Shown here: positions 1-18,923 of the stretch, piece by piece
How positions within the stretch are numbered: the stretch's first letter is position 1
How the letters are laid out: the number at the start of each line of letters is the position of its first letter
Source: a virus
Length of the DNA stretch: 18,923 nucleotides
Virus record (IMG/VR): IMGVR_UViG_3300045988_027174
Strand: one strand, 5' to 3'
Position numbers and translations under genes: made by a program
Notes under the pieces: generated by a model
Database searches by the model: none
Told to the model about the DNA's origin: nothing
Seen by the model: only the letters and a program-made list of their open reading frames with translations

Positions 1-111
1 GTGGGAGGGGTGTGGGTTTGTGTGAAGATTTTCCCTTGTGGTTTTTTTTATTTGTGTATTATTTTTTTTTGTTCTGTGACGTCGTTGTCGCTTTGTTTTG
101 TTTATGCTTCT

Positions 112-140
112 ATTATATTTTTTTTACTCTTGCTTGTCAA
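112..140 (-). promoter_or_regulatory. Outward-facing consensus promoter in the left ITR (TTGACA-N17-TATAAT on the - strand)
   Basis: The + strand reads attata at 112-117 and tgtcaa at 135-140. On the - strand this is TTGACA, a 17-nt spacer, then TATAAT. Transcription would run toward position 1, with a predicted start near 105. Confidence 0.5.
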
Positions 141-150
141 CTTTTTTTAT

Positions 151-183
151 TTCGGGCGTGTCGTTTGTTTTCGGGCGTGTCGT
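151..183 (+). promoter_or_regulatory. Direct repeats TTCGGGCGTGTCGT x2, an operator-like element between the divergent ITR promoters
   Basis: ttcgggcgtgtcgt occurs at 151-164 and again at 170-183, a 19-bp period. The repeats sit over the -35 region of the inward promoter. They are mirrored at 18741-18773. Confidence 0.5.
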
Positions 184-192
184 GTTTTTTTG

Positions 193-201
193 TGTTATGA
201 T
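193..201 (+). promoter_or_regulatory. Extended -10 promoter (TGtTATGAT) for the ITR gene
   Basis: tgttatgat at 193-201 lies about 36 nt upstream of the ATG at 237. The SD aagggaaagga is at 217-227. No -35 match is present. Confidence 0.45.
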
Positions 202-236
202 GTGAGTATCAACTTCAAGGGAAAGGAAAAAATAAA

Positions 237-437
237 ATGATTAACAACAGCATCATCAAGGATTACGCTGAAGATTACATCCTGAACAGCGGTCAGGATC
301 TCAATGATTTCAACATTGATGTGATTGTTGAGAATCTGCATCATGTGGCGGTGGTTAATAATATGACTATCGAGGGTTATCAGGATTGTGATTCGTTTCC
401 GAGTGATGATTTTGTGGGAGCGTTTGAGGAGGTGTGA
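237..437 (+). CDS. ITR-encoded 66-aa hyper-acidic protein of unknown function (copy 1)
   Basis: ATG preceded by an AAGGGAAAGGA SD and followed by a hairpin terminator. Hand count gives 9 Asp and 5 Glu against 1 Lys and 0 Arg. An identical copy lies in the right ITR. Confidence 0.6.
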   Translation: MINNSIIKDYAEDYILNSGQDLNDFNIDVIVENLHHVAVVNNMTIEGYQDCDSFPSDDFVGAFEEV

Positions 438-448
438 TAGGTAATAGT

Positions 449-483
449 AAAGCCCCTAGGTGAGTAACCTAGGGGCTTTTCTT
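449..483 (+). terminator. Intrinsic terminator at the inner edge of the left ITR
   Basis: The stem pairs aaagcccctagg (449-460) with cctaggggcttt (468-479) around the loop tgagtaa. It is followed by tctt. Confidence 0.7.
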
Positions 484-509
484 GTGTCGTTTGTTTTACG
501 GCGTGTCGT
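484..509 (+). promoter_or_regulatory. Third copy of the GTGTCGTTTGTTTT-NN-GGCGTGTCGT module, just outside the ITR
   Basis: gtgtcgtttgttttacggcgtgtcgt at 484-509 matches gtgtcgtttgttttcgggcgtgtcgt at 157-182 at 24 of 26 positions. It ends 14 nt upstream of the TATAAT at 524-529. Confidence 0.5.
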
Positions 510-561: not shown

Positions 562-804
562 ATGGAAGATTATAAGCAAATCGCAGAAGAGGCGGGCGTT
601 AGTATCGAGGAGGTGCGGGAATTGATGGCGCGCGCTTACGTCAAGAGGGTTGAGACGCCATACTATCGCACTACCGAAGATGGGCGTAAGGTGGACGCGG
701 TTGAGGTGTTTTATGCCGTTTATGCTGATCATTGCTGCCCCGCCGTTGTCCTGGGAACTGGAGACACTATCGCGGAAGCGGTAGCCGACGCCTTGACGCA
801 CTGA
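562..804 (+). CDS. Early protein, 80 aa, possible helix-turn-helix at the N-terminus
   Basis: Strong SD AGGGAGGT lies 8 nt upstream of the ATG. The segment IAEEAGVSIEEVRELMARA resembles sigma-region-4 or other HTH segments. The function is not established. Confidence 0.6.
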   Translation: MEDYKQIAEEAGVSIEEVRELMARAYVKRVETPYYRTTEDGRKVDAVEVFYAVYADHCCPAVVLGTGDTIAEAVADALTH

Positions 805-2598: not shown

Positions 2599-2913
2599 TT
2601 GGCTAGAACCAAAACCGATATTTTCCGTACGCGCGTCTACGCCGTGCTCAAGGGCATGGAACTTGTTGACGGTGATTTTATGGAAGCTGAGCACGTTATT
2701 GACGGGCGCTTGAAAGACGCGCGTGCGTATTCGGTTCGTGCGAAGAAACTGTTTCCAAACTTCATTCCACGTTCCATCAATATTTTCTCACAAAAAGTCT
2801 CTATGAATGAGGAAATTTTTTACAAGTATGCGACTTTCGAGGAGCCACAAGAATGGAACCCCGAAGAACACACAAAACGACACGCCGACATTGAAAATAA
2901 CGACGGCATGTGA
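2599..2913 (+). CDS. Putative phi29 p6-like double-stranded DNA-binding (histone-like) protein, 104 aa, TTG start
   Basis: GGGAGG at 2587-2592 lies 6 nt upstream of the TTG. The protein has a basic N-terminus, a central ...VDG(D/E)... segment and an acidic C-terminal tail. Its size and its position just upstream of the SSB match phi29 gene 6 as I recall it. Confidence 0.45.
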   Translation: MARTKTDIFRTRVYAVLKGMELVDGDFMEAEHVIDGRLKDARAYSVRAKKLFPNFIPRSINIFSQKVSMNEEIFYKYATFEEPQEWNPEEHTKRHADIENNDGM

Positions 2914-3497: not shown

Positions 3498-4454
3498 ATG
3501 TCTCGGAAGCAAAAGCATGTCAAGGCACGTCAGGCCGCACAGGCGCGTGCCGCACGCAATATTAAACAGCTTGGCGCTTACTCTCACTCGAATCTTGCAA
3601 AAACCGCCGACAAACAATTGGTCAATATCGCTAAAACGCTCGGCAAGGAATGGGAGAAACAGAAGAAACAAGCCATTGCGGAAGCGAAAGCAACCACCTA
3701 TCACGCCACCGCAGTCGAGAAGCCGACGAAAAAAGACATTATGTTTGCCCAGCGCACGCCCATCACTGACGCGCAGATAAAAGCGGAACCTGCGTCTAAA
3801 CGGCGCAAACTCTTGCGTCAGCAGCAGCGGAAGATCAATGCGGCACGGCAGAAGATCAGCGATTGGAACCGCGAACAGGCCATGCCGAAACGTAGTGTAT
3901 ATGATCAGCGCATGGCAGAACTTGAAGGCACTACGGGCGAGGGTTTCGGGCGTAACCAGATCATCCCTTCCAAGCTTACGGACTTTCTGCAAATGACCAA
4001 TGTCCTCTCGGATGAAGCATTCGTGCGCAGCCAATTGGAGAGCGGACACCGCAACGAACTGCGGGAGCAGATACATGATGCCGCCGAAATCTTGGGCTTG
4101 CGCACCGAACGGAAACGCGAACCGTCCAAAAAGCGGGGTAAGCAAAGCAAGGACTTGTACGGCGAACATGAGTGGCCGTCCTACATGTCGCGCGGACGTT
4201 ATGAAGTCTTTGAAAAAATTCTCGCCACCACGTTAGGGTCGAAACGGCTGAAACGATTCCGTAGTCTATCCAAAGCGCAAAAACGCGCGTTTATCGAACA
4301 GACGGACGCCCCCCGTATCGTGTTCGATTGGACGGTATATGACCCCGTCCGACACGGTTTTGCTTCGGTGTTCCGAGATAACAGCGAGGGGTATCAGCGT
4401 TCCCGCAAACAGTTCGACCGGTGGATGTCGGAAGCGGTCGCGCTGGAAAAGTAG
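3498..4454 (+). CDS. Putative terminal protein (replication primer), 318 aa
   Basis: The gene lies immediately upstream of the protein-primed polymerase, as in phi29. The protein is strongly basic and Lys/Arg/Gln-rich, especially at the N-terminus. The assignment rests on synteny and composition only. Confidence 0.6.
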   Translation: MSRKQKHVKARQAAQARAARNIKQLGAYSHSNLAKTADKQLVNIAKTLGKEWEKQKKQAIAEAKATTYHATAVEKPTKKDIMFAQRTPITDAQIKAEPASKRRKLLRQQQRKINAARQKISDWNREQAMPKRSVYDQRMAELEGTTGEGFGRNQIIPSKLTDFLQMTNVLSDEAFVRSQLESGHRNELREQIHDAAEILGLRTERKREPSKKRGKQSKDLYGEHEWPSYMSRGRYEVFEKILATTLGSKRLKRFRSLSKAQKRAFIEQTDAPRIVFDWTVYDPVRHGFASVFRDNSEGYQRSRKQFDRWMSEAVALEK

Positions 4455-5932: not shown

Positions 5933-5933
5933 T
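5925..5933 (+). promoter_or_regulatory. Extended -10 promoter (TGcTATAAT) overlapping the polymerase stop codon
   Basis: tgctataat at 5925-5933. It has the same TGCTATAATA flavour as the promoter at 3419. Confidence 0.5.
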
Positions 5934-5939
5934 ACTTAC

Positions 5940-6105
5940 GTCTTGTGAGCGTCGATTTTCGACTGGGAACGACACGGGTCGGACTGCCACGGCTGAGAAT
6001 GCCGCCGACCATGACTTGCTACCGTGGCGGTAGTGCCCTACGATTATCAATCCGCGCTCTGATAGGACGATTCAGACCCTCCGTGATTGGAGGGTCATTT
6101 TATTT
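5940..6105 (+). ncRNA. Candidate structured non-coding RNA of about 165 nt (possible packaging-RNA analogue or terminated leader)
   Basis: The region is bracketed by the promoter at 5925-5933 and the terminator at 6075-6107. It holds no ORF with an SD; the only ATG opens an 11-codon frame. A 10-bp helix is possible between actgccacgg (5983-5992) and ccgtggcggt (6022-6031). Smaller helices include ttatca (6044-6049) with tgatag (6060-6065). Confidence 0.4.
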
Positions 6106-6107
6106 CT
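6075..6107 (+). terminator. Intrinsic terminator
   Basis: gaccctcc (6075-6082) pairs with ggagggtc (6089-6096) around the loop gtgatt. It is followed by attttatttct. Confidence 0.75.
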
Positions 6108-6116
6108 CCCGTCACG

Positions 6117-6125
6117 TGATATAAT
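6117..6125 (+). promoter_or_regulatory. Extended -10 promoter (TGaTATAAT), candidate late promoter
   Basis: tgatataat at 6117-6125 lies 37 nt upstream of the ATG at 6162. It is overlapped by the 8-bp palindrome tcacgtga (6112-6119). Confidence 0.55.
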
Positions 6126-6161
6126 TTTGATGGAATATCAACCAATACGAAGGGAGCTTGC

Positions 6162-6440
6162 ATGGCAGACCCAAACGCTGAAAGCGAGGAAACCACTACC
6201 CCACCGCCGACCGAAGAGGAACGGCAGACCGAAACCGTAGACGATGAAGTCAAGCCAAAAGAAGAACCGGAACCGGAACCGAAAAACGAGCCGGACGTGA
6301 GCGCGCGACTTGACAGCATCGAAAAGGAATTGGCCGCATTGAAGGCCATGATGGACGCGCTCGGCTACAATGACCCCGACCCCGACTCCGACGATGACGG
6401 CGATAACGACGGTGAATCCATCGAAGATTTGTTCGACTAA
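6162..6440 (+). CDS. Putative scaffolding protein, 92 aa, highly acidic
   Basis: The SD is GAAGGGAG. The gene lies immediately upstream of the capsid gene, like phi29 gene 7, and is of similar size. It has a Glu/Asp/Pro-rich N-terminus, a central helix (SIEKELAALKAMMDAL) and a C-terminal SIEDLFD reminiscent of the phi29 gp7 C-terminus. Confidence 0.55.
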   Translation: MADPNAESEETTTPPPTEEERQTETVDDEVKPKEEPEPEPKNEPDVSARLDSIEKELAALKAMMDALGYNDPDPDSDDDGDNDGESIEDLFD

Positions 6441-17757: not shown

Positions 17758-18429
17758 ATGAATATACAAGAATGGATGAACTCAGTAAACGGACAAGTTA
17801 TCGACATGGACGGCGCATACGGCGGACAATGCTGGGACCTATGGAGTAGCTACGCACGAAACGTCTACAGCATTCCAGCCGCCGACACCAACACTGTAGA
17901 CGGATACGCCGCAAGCGTCTATTCCGCACGGTATGATCGCTCCCAAGCATTGCAAAACACATTCAGCCGAGAGAGCGCCAACTATACGCCAACCTACGGG
18001 GACGTGGCGTTTTGGAACGGCGCGGGCATGAATCACGTCGCCATTGTAATTCGAGACAATGGTAACGGGACTCTTAACACTATGTCGCAGAATCCGACCA
18101 GGGCAGGATATGTGACCATCACCAAAAACGGTATTATCGGATACTTCCACCCACGCACGGCAAACACGGCAACACCAGCAAACAACAATGTGACCATCAT
18201 TCCACGCACCTACAAGGTCAACGTGGACACGCTTAACGTACGTTCTGCACCTTCGACCTCAGCACAAGTCGTAGCCCAATACCATTACGGTCAAACCGTC
18301 GACCTCGCAGAAGGTGGCACGATCGCAGACGGATACATTTGGGCACACTACACAGGCGGCTCAGGAGCAACACGATACGTAGCCTTATCTCCAGCCGACA
18401 AATCAACATGGTACCTCGTATTCGCCTAA
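17758..18429 (+). CDS. Endolysin with an N-terminal CHAP domain and a C-terminal SH3b cell-wall-binding domain, 223 aa
   Basis: The CHAP signature is DMDGAYGGQCWDLW ... GDVAFW ... HVAIV ... QNP. The C-terminal YKVNVDTLNVRSAPSTSAQVVAQYHYGQTVDL...DGYIWAHY is SH3-like. The gene follows the holin by 1 nt. Confidence 0.88.
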   Translation: MNIQEWMNSVNGQVIDMDGAYGGQCWDLWSSYARNVYSIPAADTNTVDGYAASVYSARYDRSQALQNTFSRESANYTPTYGDVAFWNGAGMNHVAIVIRDNGNGTLNTMSQNPTRAGYVTITKNGIIGYFHPRTANTATPANNNVTIIPRTYKVNVDTLNVRSAPSTSAQVVAQYHYGQTVDLAEGGTIADGYIWAHYTGGSGATRYVALSPADKSTWYLVFA

Positions 18430-18440
18430 ATTAACAGCAT

Positions 18441-18475
18441 AAGAAAAGCCCCTAGGTTACTCACCTAGGGGCTTT
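18441..18475. terminator. Bidirectional terminator hairpin at the inner edge of the right ITR
   Basis: This is the same hairpin as 449-483. On the + strand it lies 12 nt after the endolysin stop and is followed by ttactatt. On the - strand it follows the right copy of the ITR gene with a ttttctt tract. Confidence 0.65.
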
Positions 18476-18486
18476 ACTATTACCTA

Positions 18487-18687
18487 TCACACCTCCTCAA
18501 ACGCTCCCACAAAATCATCACTCGGAAACGAATCACAATCCTGATAACCCTCGATAGTCATATTATTAACCACCGCCACATGATGCAGATTCTCAACAAT
18601 CACATCAATGTTGAAATCATTGAGATCCTGACCGCTGTTCAGGATGTAATCTTCAGCGTAATCCTTGATGATGCTGTTGTTAATCAT
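18487..18687 (-). CDS. ITR-encoded 66-aa hyper-acidic protein (copy 2)
   Basis: The translation is identical to 237-437, with the same SD, promoter and terminator, mirrored. Confidence 0.6.
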   Translation of the reverse strand: MINNSIIKDYAEDYILNSGQDLNDFNIDVIVENLHHVAVVNNMTIEGYQDCDSFPSDDFVGAFEEV

Positions 18688-18722
18688 TTTATTTTTTCCT
18701 TTCCCTTGAAGTTGATACTCAC

Positions 18723-18731
18723 ATCATAACA
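18723..18731 (-). promoter_or_regulatory. Extended -10 promoter (TGtTATGAT) for the right ITR gene copy
   Basis: Mirror image of 193-201. Confidence 0.45.
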
Positions 18732-18783
18732 CAAAAAAACACGACACGCCCGAAAACAAACGACACGCCCGAAATAAAAAAAG

Positions 18784-18812
18784 TTGACAAGCAAGAGTAA
18801 AAAAAATATAAT
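18784..18812 (+). promoter_or_regulatory. Outward-facing consensus promoter in the right ITR (TTGACA-N17-TATAAT)
   Basis: ttgaca at 18784-18789, a 17-nt spacer, and tataat at 18807-18812. It points toward the right terminus and mirrors 112-140. Confidence 0.5.
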
Positions 18813-18923
18813 AGAAGCATAAACAAAACAAAGCGACAACGACGTCACAGAACAAAAAAAAATAATACACAAATAAAAAAAACCACAAGGGAAAATCTTC
18901 ACACAAACCCACACCCCTCCCAC

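What the first reader, a model, noticed from the sequence alone, without database searches (positions are those of the whole stretch)
237..437. Duplicated 66-aa hyper-acidic early protein is a candidate DNA mimic or anti-defence factor
By hand count the protein has 14 acidic residues (9 Asp, 5 Glu) and a single basic residue, with no signal peptide or TM segment. Small, very acidic, immediately expressed phage proteins are typical DNA mimics. Examples are phi29 p56, which inhibits host uracil-DNA glycosylase, T7 Ocr, and ArdA-type and several anti-CRISPR proteins. Its position at both genome ends, with its own promoter, is what would be expected of a function needed before anything else. I do not recognise the sequence.
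Basis: inference. Interest (0 to 1): 0.75.

Follow-up and report, generated by a model that had tools for sequence, protein, structure and literature searches.

The report
Swappable acidic gene in phage ends
A real, well-conserved 66-residue, very acidic four-helix protein of unknown family sits behind its own promoter in both terminal repeats of a phi29-like Bifidobacterium phage, in a slot where related phages carry other small genes. It is a reasonable but unproven candidate inhibitor of a host defence or DNA-binding protein.

Summary
Window 237-437 (+) and 18487-18687 (-) encode the same 66-aa protein: 9 Asp, 5 Glu, 1 Lys, 0 Arg, pI 4.05, no transmembrane segment. Both copies lie in a perfect 483-bp inverted terminal repeat of a complete 18.9-kb phi29-like Bifidobacterium podophage, nearest isolate BP1.

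The gene is genuinely protein-coding (dN/dS about 0.12 at dS about 0.94). It is monocistronic, with a conserved extended -10 box, a Shine-Dalgarno site and the strongest terminator in the genome.

AlphaFold2 gives a confident all-alpha four-helix model (pLDDT 91). Pfam, PHROGs, NCBIfam, PDB sequence search, Foldseek on PDB and BFVD, and an exhaustive scan of 1.84 billion proteins link it to nothing known. It is therefore not a member of the p56, Ocr, ArdA or Ugi families.

The new result is the context. The same terminal promoter and terminator flank at least four unrelated small genes in relatives, and the two ends often carry different ones. The 66-aa gene is 63-85% identical in lineages whose DNA polymerase is only about 35% identical.

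It is an exchangeable accessory cassette at the genome tips, which fits an anti-defence or host-takeover inhibitor. DNA mimicry, the target and early timing remain untested.

The parts
1..483 (+). Left inverted terminal repeat, a perfect copy of the right one. It contains the whole cassette: promoter, gene and terminator.
   Evidence: first mismatch at 484; the terminus GTGGGAGG matches the BP1 end next to the adapter
155..192 (+). Two tandem 19-bp repeats containing the exact box GGCGTGTCGT (155-164, 174-183). They lie 12 nt upstream of the -10 box and are a candidate regulator or -35-region element.
   Evidence: the box is conserved across divergent lineages; the same arrangement lies in front of gene 2 at 484-529
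193..201 (+). Extended -10 promoter element TGTTATGAT
   Evidence: read directly from the sequence; these columns are invariant or nearly invariant in alignment A2
207..236 (+). Conserved leader TATCAACTTCAAGG followed by a Shine-Dalgarno site (AAAGGA at 222-227, 9 nt before the ATG)
   Evidence: the same leader precedes unrelated cargo genes in relatives
237..437 (+). CDS of the 66-aa acidic protein (left copy)
   Evidence: dN/dS 0.12-0.13; AF2 pLDDT 91.6
449..483 (+). Intrinsic terminator: 13-bp stem AAAGCCCCTAGGT...ACCTAGGGGCTTT plus a T tract. It has an A tract on the other side, so it could work in both directions.
   Evidence: the same hairpin follows four different cargo families
18441..18923 (-). 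Right inverted terminal repeat
18487..18687 (-). CDS of the 66-aa acidic protein (right copy), convergent with the late or lysis genes that end at 18429
18723..18731 (-). Extended -10 element of the right copy (mirror of 193-201)
   Evidence: mirror coordinates within the perfect ITR
18445..18475 (-). Terminator hairpin of the right copy. It sits 15 nt beyond the end of the last + strand gene, so it is placed to terminate that transcript too.
   Evidence: (family D4)

Best explanation
The gene is an accessory cassette in the inverted terminal repeats of a phi29-like, protein-primed Bifidobacterium podophage.

Proposed mechanism: whichever genome end enters the cell first exposes a promoter of the extended -10 type, which host RNA polymerase is expected to read unaided. 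A short monocistronic mRNA of roughly 270 nt, running from the promoter to the terminator at 449-483, is then made. It yields a compact, soluble four-helix protein with a net charge of -13 (up to about -19 in relatives).

I consider it most likely that this protein binds and blocks a host protein stoichiometrically. The most probable target is a strain-variable nucleic-acid-binding defence enzyme such as a restriction-modification system, with the anionic surface competing with DNA. This is the same logic as T7 Ocr, in a different protein.

Shown: the ORF, its composition, the ITR, purifying selection, the cassette flanks, cassette exchange, lack of homology, and the confident helical model.

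Inferred: early timing, inhibition of a host protein, DNA mimicry, and the target.

My sub-probabilities:
- inhibitor of some host protein: about 0.65-0.7
- target is an anti-phage defence: about 0.45
- mechanism is DNA mimicry: about 0.3
- target is uracil-DNA glycosylase: under 0.1
For: Real, selected protein:
- 25 distinct CDS give a median dN/dS of 0.13 at dS 0.94.
- Variable sites by codon position are 32/25/56, and the other sense frames are closed.
- Acidity is conserved across the family: D+E 14-21, K+R 1-3.
- The AF2 model is confident and reproducible with two alignments: pLDDT 91.6 and 90.7, helices 4-17, 27-40, 48-53 and 56-64.

Self-contained unit: promoter box, leader, Shine-Dalgarno site and the genome's strongest terminator.

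Accessory and mobile:
- The gene is absent from BP1, whose backbone is 81% identical at the DNA level.
- The same leader drives at least eight different cargo proteins in relatives, five of them strongly acidic.
- The same terminator follows four cargo families.
- The 81-aa and 85-aa cargo families are not detectably related to the 66-aa family.
- Single contigs combine different cargo at their two ends, for example L009/L138 and L034/L078.
- Chimeras and leftover C-terminal tails of other cargo show recombination.
- The gene is 63-85% identical in lineages with about 35% DNA polymerase and about 30% ATPase identity to the window.
- It occurs at either end of the genome.
- It is confined to these phages: 187 close homologues, only 20 representatives among 1.84 billion proteins, and none in 185,579 species genomes.

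No homology to a structural or replication protein was found.

Known DNA mimics are small, acidic and mutually unrelated in sequence and fold (PMC3902945, PMC2018632). Lack of homology therefore does not count against mimicry.
Against: - There is no functional datum of any kind.
- There is no fold or sequence match to any solved DNA mimic or anti-CRISPR protein. The best Foldseek E-value is 2.3.
- A small helical bundle with 21% Asp+Glu necessarily has an acidic surface, so acidity alone is weak evidence.
- The phosphate-like spacing of carboxylates and the oligomeric state could not be tested.
- Early timing rests on position and promoter type. The promoter lacks a recognisable -35 element and carries a repeated GGCGTGTCGT box, which could mean phage-controlled rather than immediate expression.
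- Purifying selection (dN/dS 0.12) shows no arms-race signature.
Confidence: 0.45

Rival explanations
1. It is a host-takeover factor aimed at housekeeping machinery rather than a defence system. Candidate targets are RNA polymerase or sigma factor, a nucleoid protein such as HU, or the division apparatus. Comparable small acidic proteins are T7 Gp2, SPO1 Gp46 and T7 Gp0.4.
For: It shares the general features of those proteins: small, acidic, soluble, in its own unit at the genome tip, and of no known family.
Against: Housekeeping targets are conserved across Bifidobacterium. One would then expect the gene to be kept in all close relatives. Instead it is replaced by unrelated cargo in phages with nearly the same backbone. 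The other cargo genes could, however, be functional analogues.
Confidence: 0.2
2. It is a functional analogue of phi29 p56. It would inhibit host uracil-DNA glycosylase and so protect the single-stranded replication intermediates of a protein-primed genome.
For: The phage has the phi29-type SSB and protein-primed family B polymerase. p56 is likewise a small acidic early protein, 56 aa with pI 4.17 (PMC2018632).
Against: There is no sequence or fold similarity. p56 is about 40% beta-strand and an obligate dimer (PMC2018632, PMC3239192), whereas this model is all-alpha. UDG is a conserved host enzyme, yet close relatives such as BP1 lack this gene.
Confidence: 0.08
3. It is a replication or genome-end accessory protein. 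It could be an acidic partner or chaperone of the very basic putative terminal protein (window 3498-4454, pI 10.3, net +29), or a factor acting at the origins in the ITR.
For: The gene lies inside the ITR, next to the replication origins. Its charge is complementary to the putative terminal protein.
Against: Core replication partners should co-evolve with the polymerase and terminal protein. This gene is 63-85% identical where the polymerase is about 35% identical. It is also absent from viable isolates with an 81% identical backbone.
Confidence: 0.1
4. The ORF is not a functional gene. On this view its conservation reflects DNA-level constraints on the terminal repeat, or the duplication is an assembly artefact.
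For: ITRs of protein-primed genomes carry cis-acting replication sequences. Metagenomic assemblies can also create end artefacts. The antisense frame is open in 22 of 25 sequences.
Against: Third codon positions vary at 56 of 66 sites, against 32 and 25 at positions 1 and 2, and dN/dS is 0.12. The length is a constant 66 aa in about 180 homologues. AF2 gives a confident fold. The non-coding ITR outside the promoter is not conserved between lineages while the gene is. Seven other contigs and two isolates show real ITRs. The open antisense frame is what a D/E/N/I-rich codon set with few TTA, CTA or TCA codons produces.
Confidence: 0.03

Closest known systems
T7 Ocr (gp0.3), a DNA-mimic inhibitor of type I restriction-modification and BREX
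   Same: A small, strongly acidic, alpha-helical protein. It is the first gene at the entering end of a podophage genome and is read from host-type promoters before the rest of the genome is exposed. (The Ocr facts are from my own knowledge.)
   Different: There is no Pfam hit, including to Pfam's Ocr model, and no PDB sequence or Foldseek match. The protein is 66 aa rather than 116. Its oligomeric state and target are unknown. Here the gene lies in an ITR and is exchangeable.
phi29 p56, a uracil-DNA glycosylase inhibitor
   Same: A small acidic protein (56 aa, pI 4.17) made early by a phi29-type, protein-primed phage. It is proposed to mimic DNA (PMC2018632, PMC3239192).
   Different: p56 is a beta-rich dimer with a fold of its own, whereas the present model is a four-helix monomer model. 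There is no sequence or structural match. The gene is not conserved among close relatives.
Anti-defence accessory hotspots: anti-CRISPR loci, and the leading regions of conjugative plasmids carrying ArdA or Ocr-like genes
   Same: Unrelated small genes are swapped between conserved flanks. They are transferred horizontally between otherwise divergent elements and sit on the DNA that enters the cell first.
   Different: No member of the slot matches a known anti-defence family. The only candidate for an adjacent HTH regulator (Aca-like) is a sub-threshold Sigma70_r4 hit in gene 2, E=0.003.
Diploid host-range and immunomodulatory genes in poxvirus inverted terminal repeats
   Same: Accessory host-interaction genes lie in terminal repeats with movable boundaries. 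A gene is therefore sometimes present at both ends and sometimes at one. (The poxvirus facts are from my own knowledge.)
   Different: Those are eukaryotic viruses with hairpin ends and far larger ITRs. The resemblance is one of genome architecture only.
BD811P2_00001 (WAX06311.1), the first gene of Bifidobacterium phage BD811P2, annotated as a hypothetical protein
   Same: A likely distant homologue. hhalign aligns 54 columns at 31% identity with E 2.7e-4, and it is colinear in alignment A3. It has the same position behind the same promoter and leader, is 61 aa, and has 15 acidic and 1 basic residue.
   Different: It is present at one end only; the other end carries an unrelated 105-aa acidic protein. 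It lacks the HH and DCDSFP motifs of the 66-aa subfamily. The hhalign probability is only 41%.

Membership tests
phi29 p56 (UDG inhibitor) | Sequence similarity to p56 | tested here: not met
   phmmer and two profile searches against all PDB chains, which include p56, gave no relevant hit at E<=10. Pfam and PHROGs gave nothing significant.
phi29 p56 (UDG inhibitor) | Fold: three antiparallel beta stretches plus one helix, about 40% beta (PMC3239192, PMC2018632) | tested here: not met
   The AF2 model is all-alpha with four helices, pLDDT 91. Foldseek against PDB gave no match with E<2.
phi29 p56 (UDG inhibitor) | Obligate dimer that binds UDG 2:1 and blocks DNA binding | not testable with these tools
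   The tool predicts single chains only. No binding assay is possible.
T7 Ocr | Match to the Ocr family model or to the Ocr structure | tested here: not met
   No Pfam family at E<=10. No PDB sequence hit. No Foldseek hit.
T7 Ocr | First gene at the genome end, behind a host-type promoter | tested here: met
   It is the first ORF after a conserved extended -10 box in both termini. This is positional evidence only.
ArdA / Ugi / SAUGI / anti-CRISPR families | Match to the curated family HMMs or to solved structures | tested here: not met
   Pfam, NCBIfam on 25 family members, PDB and Foldseek on PDB and BFVD are all negative.
DNA-mimic proteins (functional class) | Small size and a strong excess of Asp and Glu | tested here: met
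   66 aa, 14 acidic and 1 basic residue, pI 4.05. The family range is 14-21 acidic and 1-3 basic.
DNA-mimic proteins (functional class) | Surface carboxylates arranged like the phosphates of DNA, on a suitable scaffold (PMC3902945) | not testable with these tools
   Model coordinates are not returned, so only the secondary structure is known. Each helix carries acidic residues at helical spacings of 3 to 4 (i, i+3/i+4), which any small acidic bundle would show.
DNA-mimic proteins (functional class) | Occupies the DNA-binding site of a target protein | not testable with these tools
   This needs binding or competition assays, or complex prediction with host proteins.
Phage accessory / anti-defence cassette (operational class) | Unrelated genes alternate between conserved flanks, with horizontal transfer between divergent genomes | tested here: met
   

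The most novel reading that the evidence does not exclude
phi29-like Bifidobacterium phages carry, in both terminal repeats, a promoter-to-terminator slot that is the first DNA to enter the cell. This slot is loaded by recombination with interchangeable anti-defence genes. On this reading the 66-aa protein is the founding member of a new-fold family of DNA-mimic (anti-restriction) proteins, which spreads horizontally between phage lineages and is expressed from whichever end enters first.
Probability: 0.25. Interest if true: 0.7.

Novelty: new member of a known kind. Interest (0 to 1): 0.45.

Why it matters
Restriction-modification is, from general knowledge, the main barrier to genetic work on bifidobacteria and a main determinant of phage host range there. 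Only four virulent podophages of human-gut Bifidobacterium have been isolated (PMC12694917), and none of their small terminal genes has a known function.

If this protein is an anti-restriction or other anti-defence factor, it would be the first from this host group. It would add a new fold to the short list of DNA mimics. It could also be useful in practice for raising transformation efficiency, as Ocr is used in E. coli.

Whatever the function, the terminal slot gives a simple rule for finding candidate counter-defence genes in this phage group. The genes to test are those between the conserved TATCARCTTCAAGG leader and the GCCCCTAGG...CCTAGGGGC terminator. If the protein turns out to be an ordinary host-takeover factor, the finding is routine.

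Tried and rejected
1. Homology searches all failed.
- Pfam gave 0 families at E<=10.
- PHROGs gave only E=0.09 and 0.43 hits to families of unknown function.
- NCBIfam on 25 members gave only noise.
- PDB by phmmer and two profiles gave nothing, or E=1.3 noise.
- tblastn against 50,697 phage records gave no match.

2. Structure search failed. Foldseek against PDB and BFVD gave a best E-value of 2.3. The top PDB hits are the small helical lid of proteasomal AAA ATPases at TM about 0.35. I treat these as chance.

3. I tried a linker-fused homodimer to probe dimerisation.

4. By eye I considered an acyl-carrier-protein-like or colicin-immunity-like four-helix layout and an EF-hand pair. There is no DSL serine and no EF-hand loop consensus, and no Foldseek support. 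Rejected.

5. I tested whether ORF conservation is a by-product of ITR DNA conservation. Rejected by dN/dS and the codon-position pattern, and by the lack of conservation in the distal ITR.

6. I asked whether the outward-facing consensus promoter in the ITR makes a phi29-like packaging RNA. The roughly 105-nt product is A/C-rich and essentially unstructured, and Rfam finds no pRNA. Rejected as a pRNA; its role is unexplained.

7. I looked for bacterial or prophage homologues that might hint at a target. There are none in 185,579 species genomes.

8. I tested whether the different cargo families form one fast-evolving superfamily. hhalign gave a probability below 1% for the 81-aa and 85-aa families. 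Only BD811P2 gp1 looks related.

9. The literature held nothing on these terminal genes.

Full report
**What the window is.** The 18,923-bp window is a complete linear genome with 49.8% G+C. All genes lie on the + strand except the last one.
- It encodes a phi29-type SSB (PF17427, E 6e-18) and a protein-primed family B DNA polymerase (PF03175, E 8e-28).
- A close relative also shows a phi29-type capsid protein and tail knob.
- The nearest isolates are Bifidobacterium phage BP1, which infects B. pseudocatenulatum (81% identity over 73% of the genome), and the B. dentium phages BD811P1-3.
- BP1 is a podovirus placed near the Salasmaviridae. Only four such phages of human-gut bifidobacteria have been isolated (PMC12694917).

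**Check of the observation.** The ORF at 237-437 (+) and the ORF at 18487-18687 (-) give the same 66-residue protein.
- Composition: 9 Asp, 5 Glu, 1 Lys, no Arg, 2 His. pI is 4.05 and net charge about -13.
- No hydrophobic stretch approaches transmembrane values.
- Against the rest of the phage proteome the composition has a chance of about 1.6e-4. Only 27 of 4091 equally long windows elsewhere in the proteome are as net-negative.
- The two copies lie in an inverted terminal repeat that is perfect for 483 bp and diverges right after the terminator.
- The repeat is real rather than an assembly artefact. Seven independent IMG/VR contigs carry the gene in a repeat at both ends. BP1 and BD811P2 have terminal repeats. 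In the BP1 record an Illumina adapter is joined directly to GTGGGAGG, the first bases of this window.

**It is a real gene.** The 5.8-billion-protein collection holds 187 homologues. Of the 120 listed, nearly all are exactly 66 aa and 74-100% identical, many on contigs of 17-19 kb.
- For 25 distinct coding sequences, median dN is 0.13, dS is 0.94 and dN/dS is 0.13.
- Variable sites by codon position are 32, 25 and 56 of 66, and the other two sense frames are closed in all sequences.
- The non-coding part of the repeat is not alignable between lineages, except for the promoter-proximal 70 nt.
- Conservation therefore acts on the protein, not on the repeat DNA.
- The antisense frame is open in 22 of 25 sequences. 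I attribute this to the codon set of a D/E/N/I-rich protein.

**Transcription unit.**
- Upstream lies TGTTATGAT (193-201), an extended -10 element.
- Two tandem 19-bp repeats precede it, each containing the exact 10-mer GGCGTGTCGT.
- Downstream come the leader TATCAACTTCAAGG and a Shine-Dalgarno site 9 nt before the ATG.
- These elements are the only well-conserved columns when divergent lineages are aligned.
- The same box-plus-(-10) arrangement recurs in front of the second gene.
- Eleven bases after the stop codon lies the strongest terminator-like hairpin in the genome, with a 13-bp stem and 7 G-C pairs.
- At the right end the mirrored hairpin sits 15 nt beyond the last + strand gene, so it can end both convergent transcripts.
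- Timing of expression is not shown by any of this. The promoter has no recognisable -35 hexamer, and the repeated box could be a site for a phage or host regulator.

**The protein.** AlphaFold2 with 34 close homologues gives pLDDT 91.6 and pTM 0.77. A more diverse 25-sequence alignment gives 90.7 and 0.74 with the same secondary structure. The helices span residues 4-17, 27-40, 48-53 and 56-64, and a single beta bridge links residues 2 and 45.

Nothing known resembles it:
- Pfam none, PHROGs only weak hits to families of unknown function, NCBIfam noise.
- No PDB chain by sequence or profile.
- Foldseek best E-value 2.3 against both PDB and the BFVD viral models.
- An exhaustive HMMER pass over 1.84 billion representative proteins found only 20 sequences, all short members of the same family.
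- No bacterial or archaeal species genome encodes a relative.

The one extension of the family is the first gene of phage BD811P2. It is 61 aa with 15 acidic and 1 basic residue. It aligns over 54 columns with E 2.7e-4 and sits behind the same promoter.

**The context is the main new result.** I searched viral contigs for the conserved leader and read the ORF behind it. The same promoter and leader drive many different small proteins in relatives:
- the 66-aa family
- an 81-aa family (BP1 gp1)
- an 85-aa family
- a 95-aa protein
- a 105-118-aa family (BD811P2 gp21)
- BP1 gp26 (91 aa)
- a 77-aa protein
- BD811P2 gp1

Five of the eight are strongly acidic, and none has a Pfam or PHROG assignment. 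The 81-aa and 85-aa families show no profile similarity to the 66-aa family.

Further evidence that this is an exchangeable cassette:
- The terminator hairpin GCCCCTAGG...CCTAGGGGC follows four of these families.
- Individual contigs combine cargo in all ways: the same gene at both ends, or 66-aa plus 81-aa, 66-aa plus 77-aa, or 81-aa plus 118-aa.
- The 66-aa gene is found next to the early genes in some loci and convergent with the lysis genes in others.
- There are recombination scars. Some 66-aa proteins end with the tail of the 118-aa family (SGDRYELVEA) or of the 85-aa family (SVDNGD). One contig has an 81-aa/66-aa chimera.
- The 66-aa protein stays 63-85% identical in lineages whose DNA polymerase is about 35% and whose packaging ATPase is about 30% identical to the window's. 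That implies horizontal transfer of the cassette.

In BP1 and BD811P2 the repeat ends at the start codon, so only the promoter is duplicated. In this window the repeat has spread over the whole cassette.

**Interpretation.** The data show an accessory, exchangeable, horizontally mobile gene for a compact anionic protein, placed on the first DNA that either end brings into the cell.
- This pattern is typical of counter-defence and host-takeover genes.
- It argues against a core replication role and against a conserved housekeeping target such as uracil-DNA glycosylase.
- The parallel with T7 Ocr is one of logic only (first gene in, acidic, helical); family membership fails every test that could be run.
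- p56 membership fails on both sequence and fold. p56 is a beta-rich dimer (PMC2018632, PMC3239192).
- Known DNA mimics share neither sequence nor fold (PMC3902945). These failures therefore lower 'it is an Ocr or a p56' but not 'it works by mimicking DNA'.
- The mimicry claim itself is untested. I could not obtain coordinates to map the charges, could not model a dimer, and could not model complexes with host proteins.

My probabilities:
- about 0.65-0.7 that it inhibits some host protein
- about 0.45 that the target is a defence system
- about 0.3 that the mechanism is DNA mimicry
- under 0.1 that the target is UDG

**Verdict.** The protein is a new, unannotated family of a known general kind: small acidic accessory proteins at phage genome ends. 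The terminal-repeat cassette arrangement is the more interesting aspect. Interest is moderate, because the candidate is well defined and easy to test, but no evidence yet bears on its function.

Noticed in passing
window 112-140 (- strand) and mirror copy 18784-18812 (+ strand): A perfect TTGACA-17 nt-TATAAT promoter points outward, toward the genome terminus, in both repeats. The two hexamers are kept in BP1 and in L012 while the spacer differs. The run-off RNA of about 105 nt would be A/C-rich and nearly unstructured, so it is not a phi29-like pRNA. Its purpose is unknown; it could be origin activation or an end-directed transcript.
   Followed up: partly
window 155-164, 174-183, 500-509 (+), 2877-2886 (-), and mirror copies 18741-18750 and 18760-18769: The exact 10-mer GGCGTGTCGT occurs six times. 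Upstream of the gene studied here it lies in tandem 19-bp repeats 12 nt before the -10 box, and a similar arrangement lies 14 nt before the -10 box of gene 2. A GGGYGTGTYGT box is conserved across divergent lineages. It is a candidate regulator binding site or an unusual -35-region element.
   Followed up: partly
L001 (GenBank PQ571273, phage BP1) 1-292: The left end of the deposited BP1 genome is not phage terminus. Bases 1-118 repeat bases 663-779, and bases 260-292 are the Illumina adapter ACACTCTTTCCCTACACGACGCTCTTCCGATCT. The true end, GTGGGAGG, starts at 293. The right end of the record is truncated relative to the left repeat.
   Followed up: yes
window 562-804 (+): The second gene has its own promoter of the same type. 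It encodes an 80-aa acidic protein (pI 4.5, net -8) with a sub-threshold helix-turn-helix hit at residues 4-26 (Sigma70_r4, E 0.003, below the Pfam cut-off). It could be a small regulator.
   Followed up: no
window 5933-6161 (+): Rfam finds no packaging RNA anywhere in the genome. This 229-nt gap between the polymerase gene and the capsid module folds somewhat better than shuffles (z -2.1). It ends in a terminator-like hairpin at 6075-6096. It is a possible location of a divergent pRNA.
   Followed up: partly
window 6162-6440 (+): A 92-aa protein with 36% Asp+Glu (net -26, pI 4.05) lies directly upstream of the major capsid gene and has no Pfam match. It is more acidic than the protein studied here. 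Its position suggests a scaffolding or head-associated protein.
   Followed up: no
window 3498-4454 (+): A 318-aa protein with pI 10.3 and net +29, with no Pfam match, lies between the SSB and DNA polymerase genes. By position it is the likely terminal protein. The listed GTG start of the polymerase ORF (4421) overlaps it by 34 nt.
   Followed up: no
L003 530-736; L012/L013 (repeat of about 523 bp); L031/L032 (repeat of about 687 bp): In some relatives a further small ORF lies between the 66-aa gene and the next conserved gene, or the repeat is longer than here. The slot may therefore hold more than one cargo gene.
   Followed up: no
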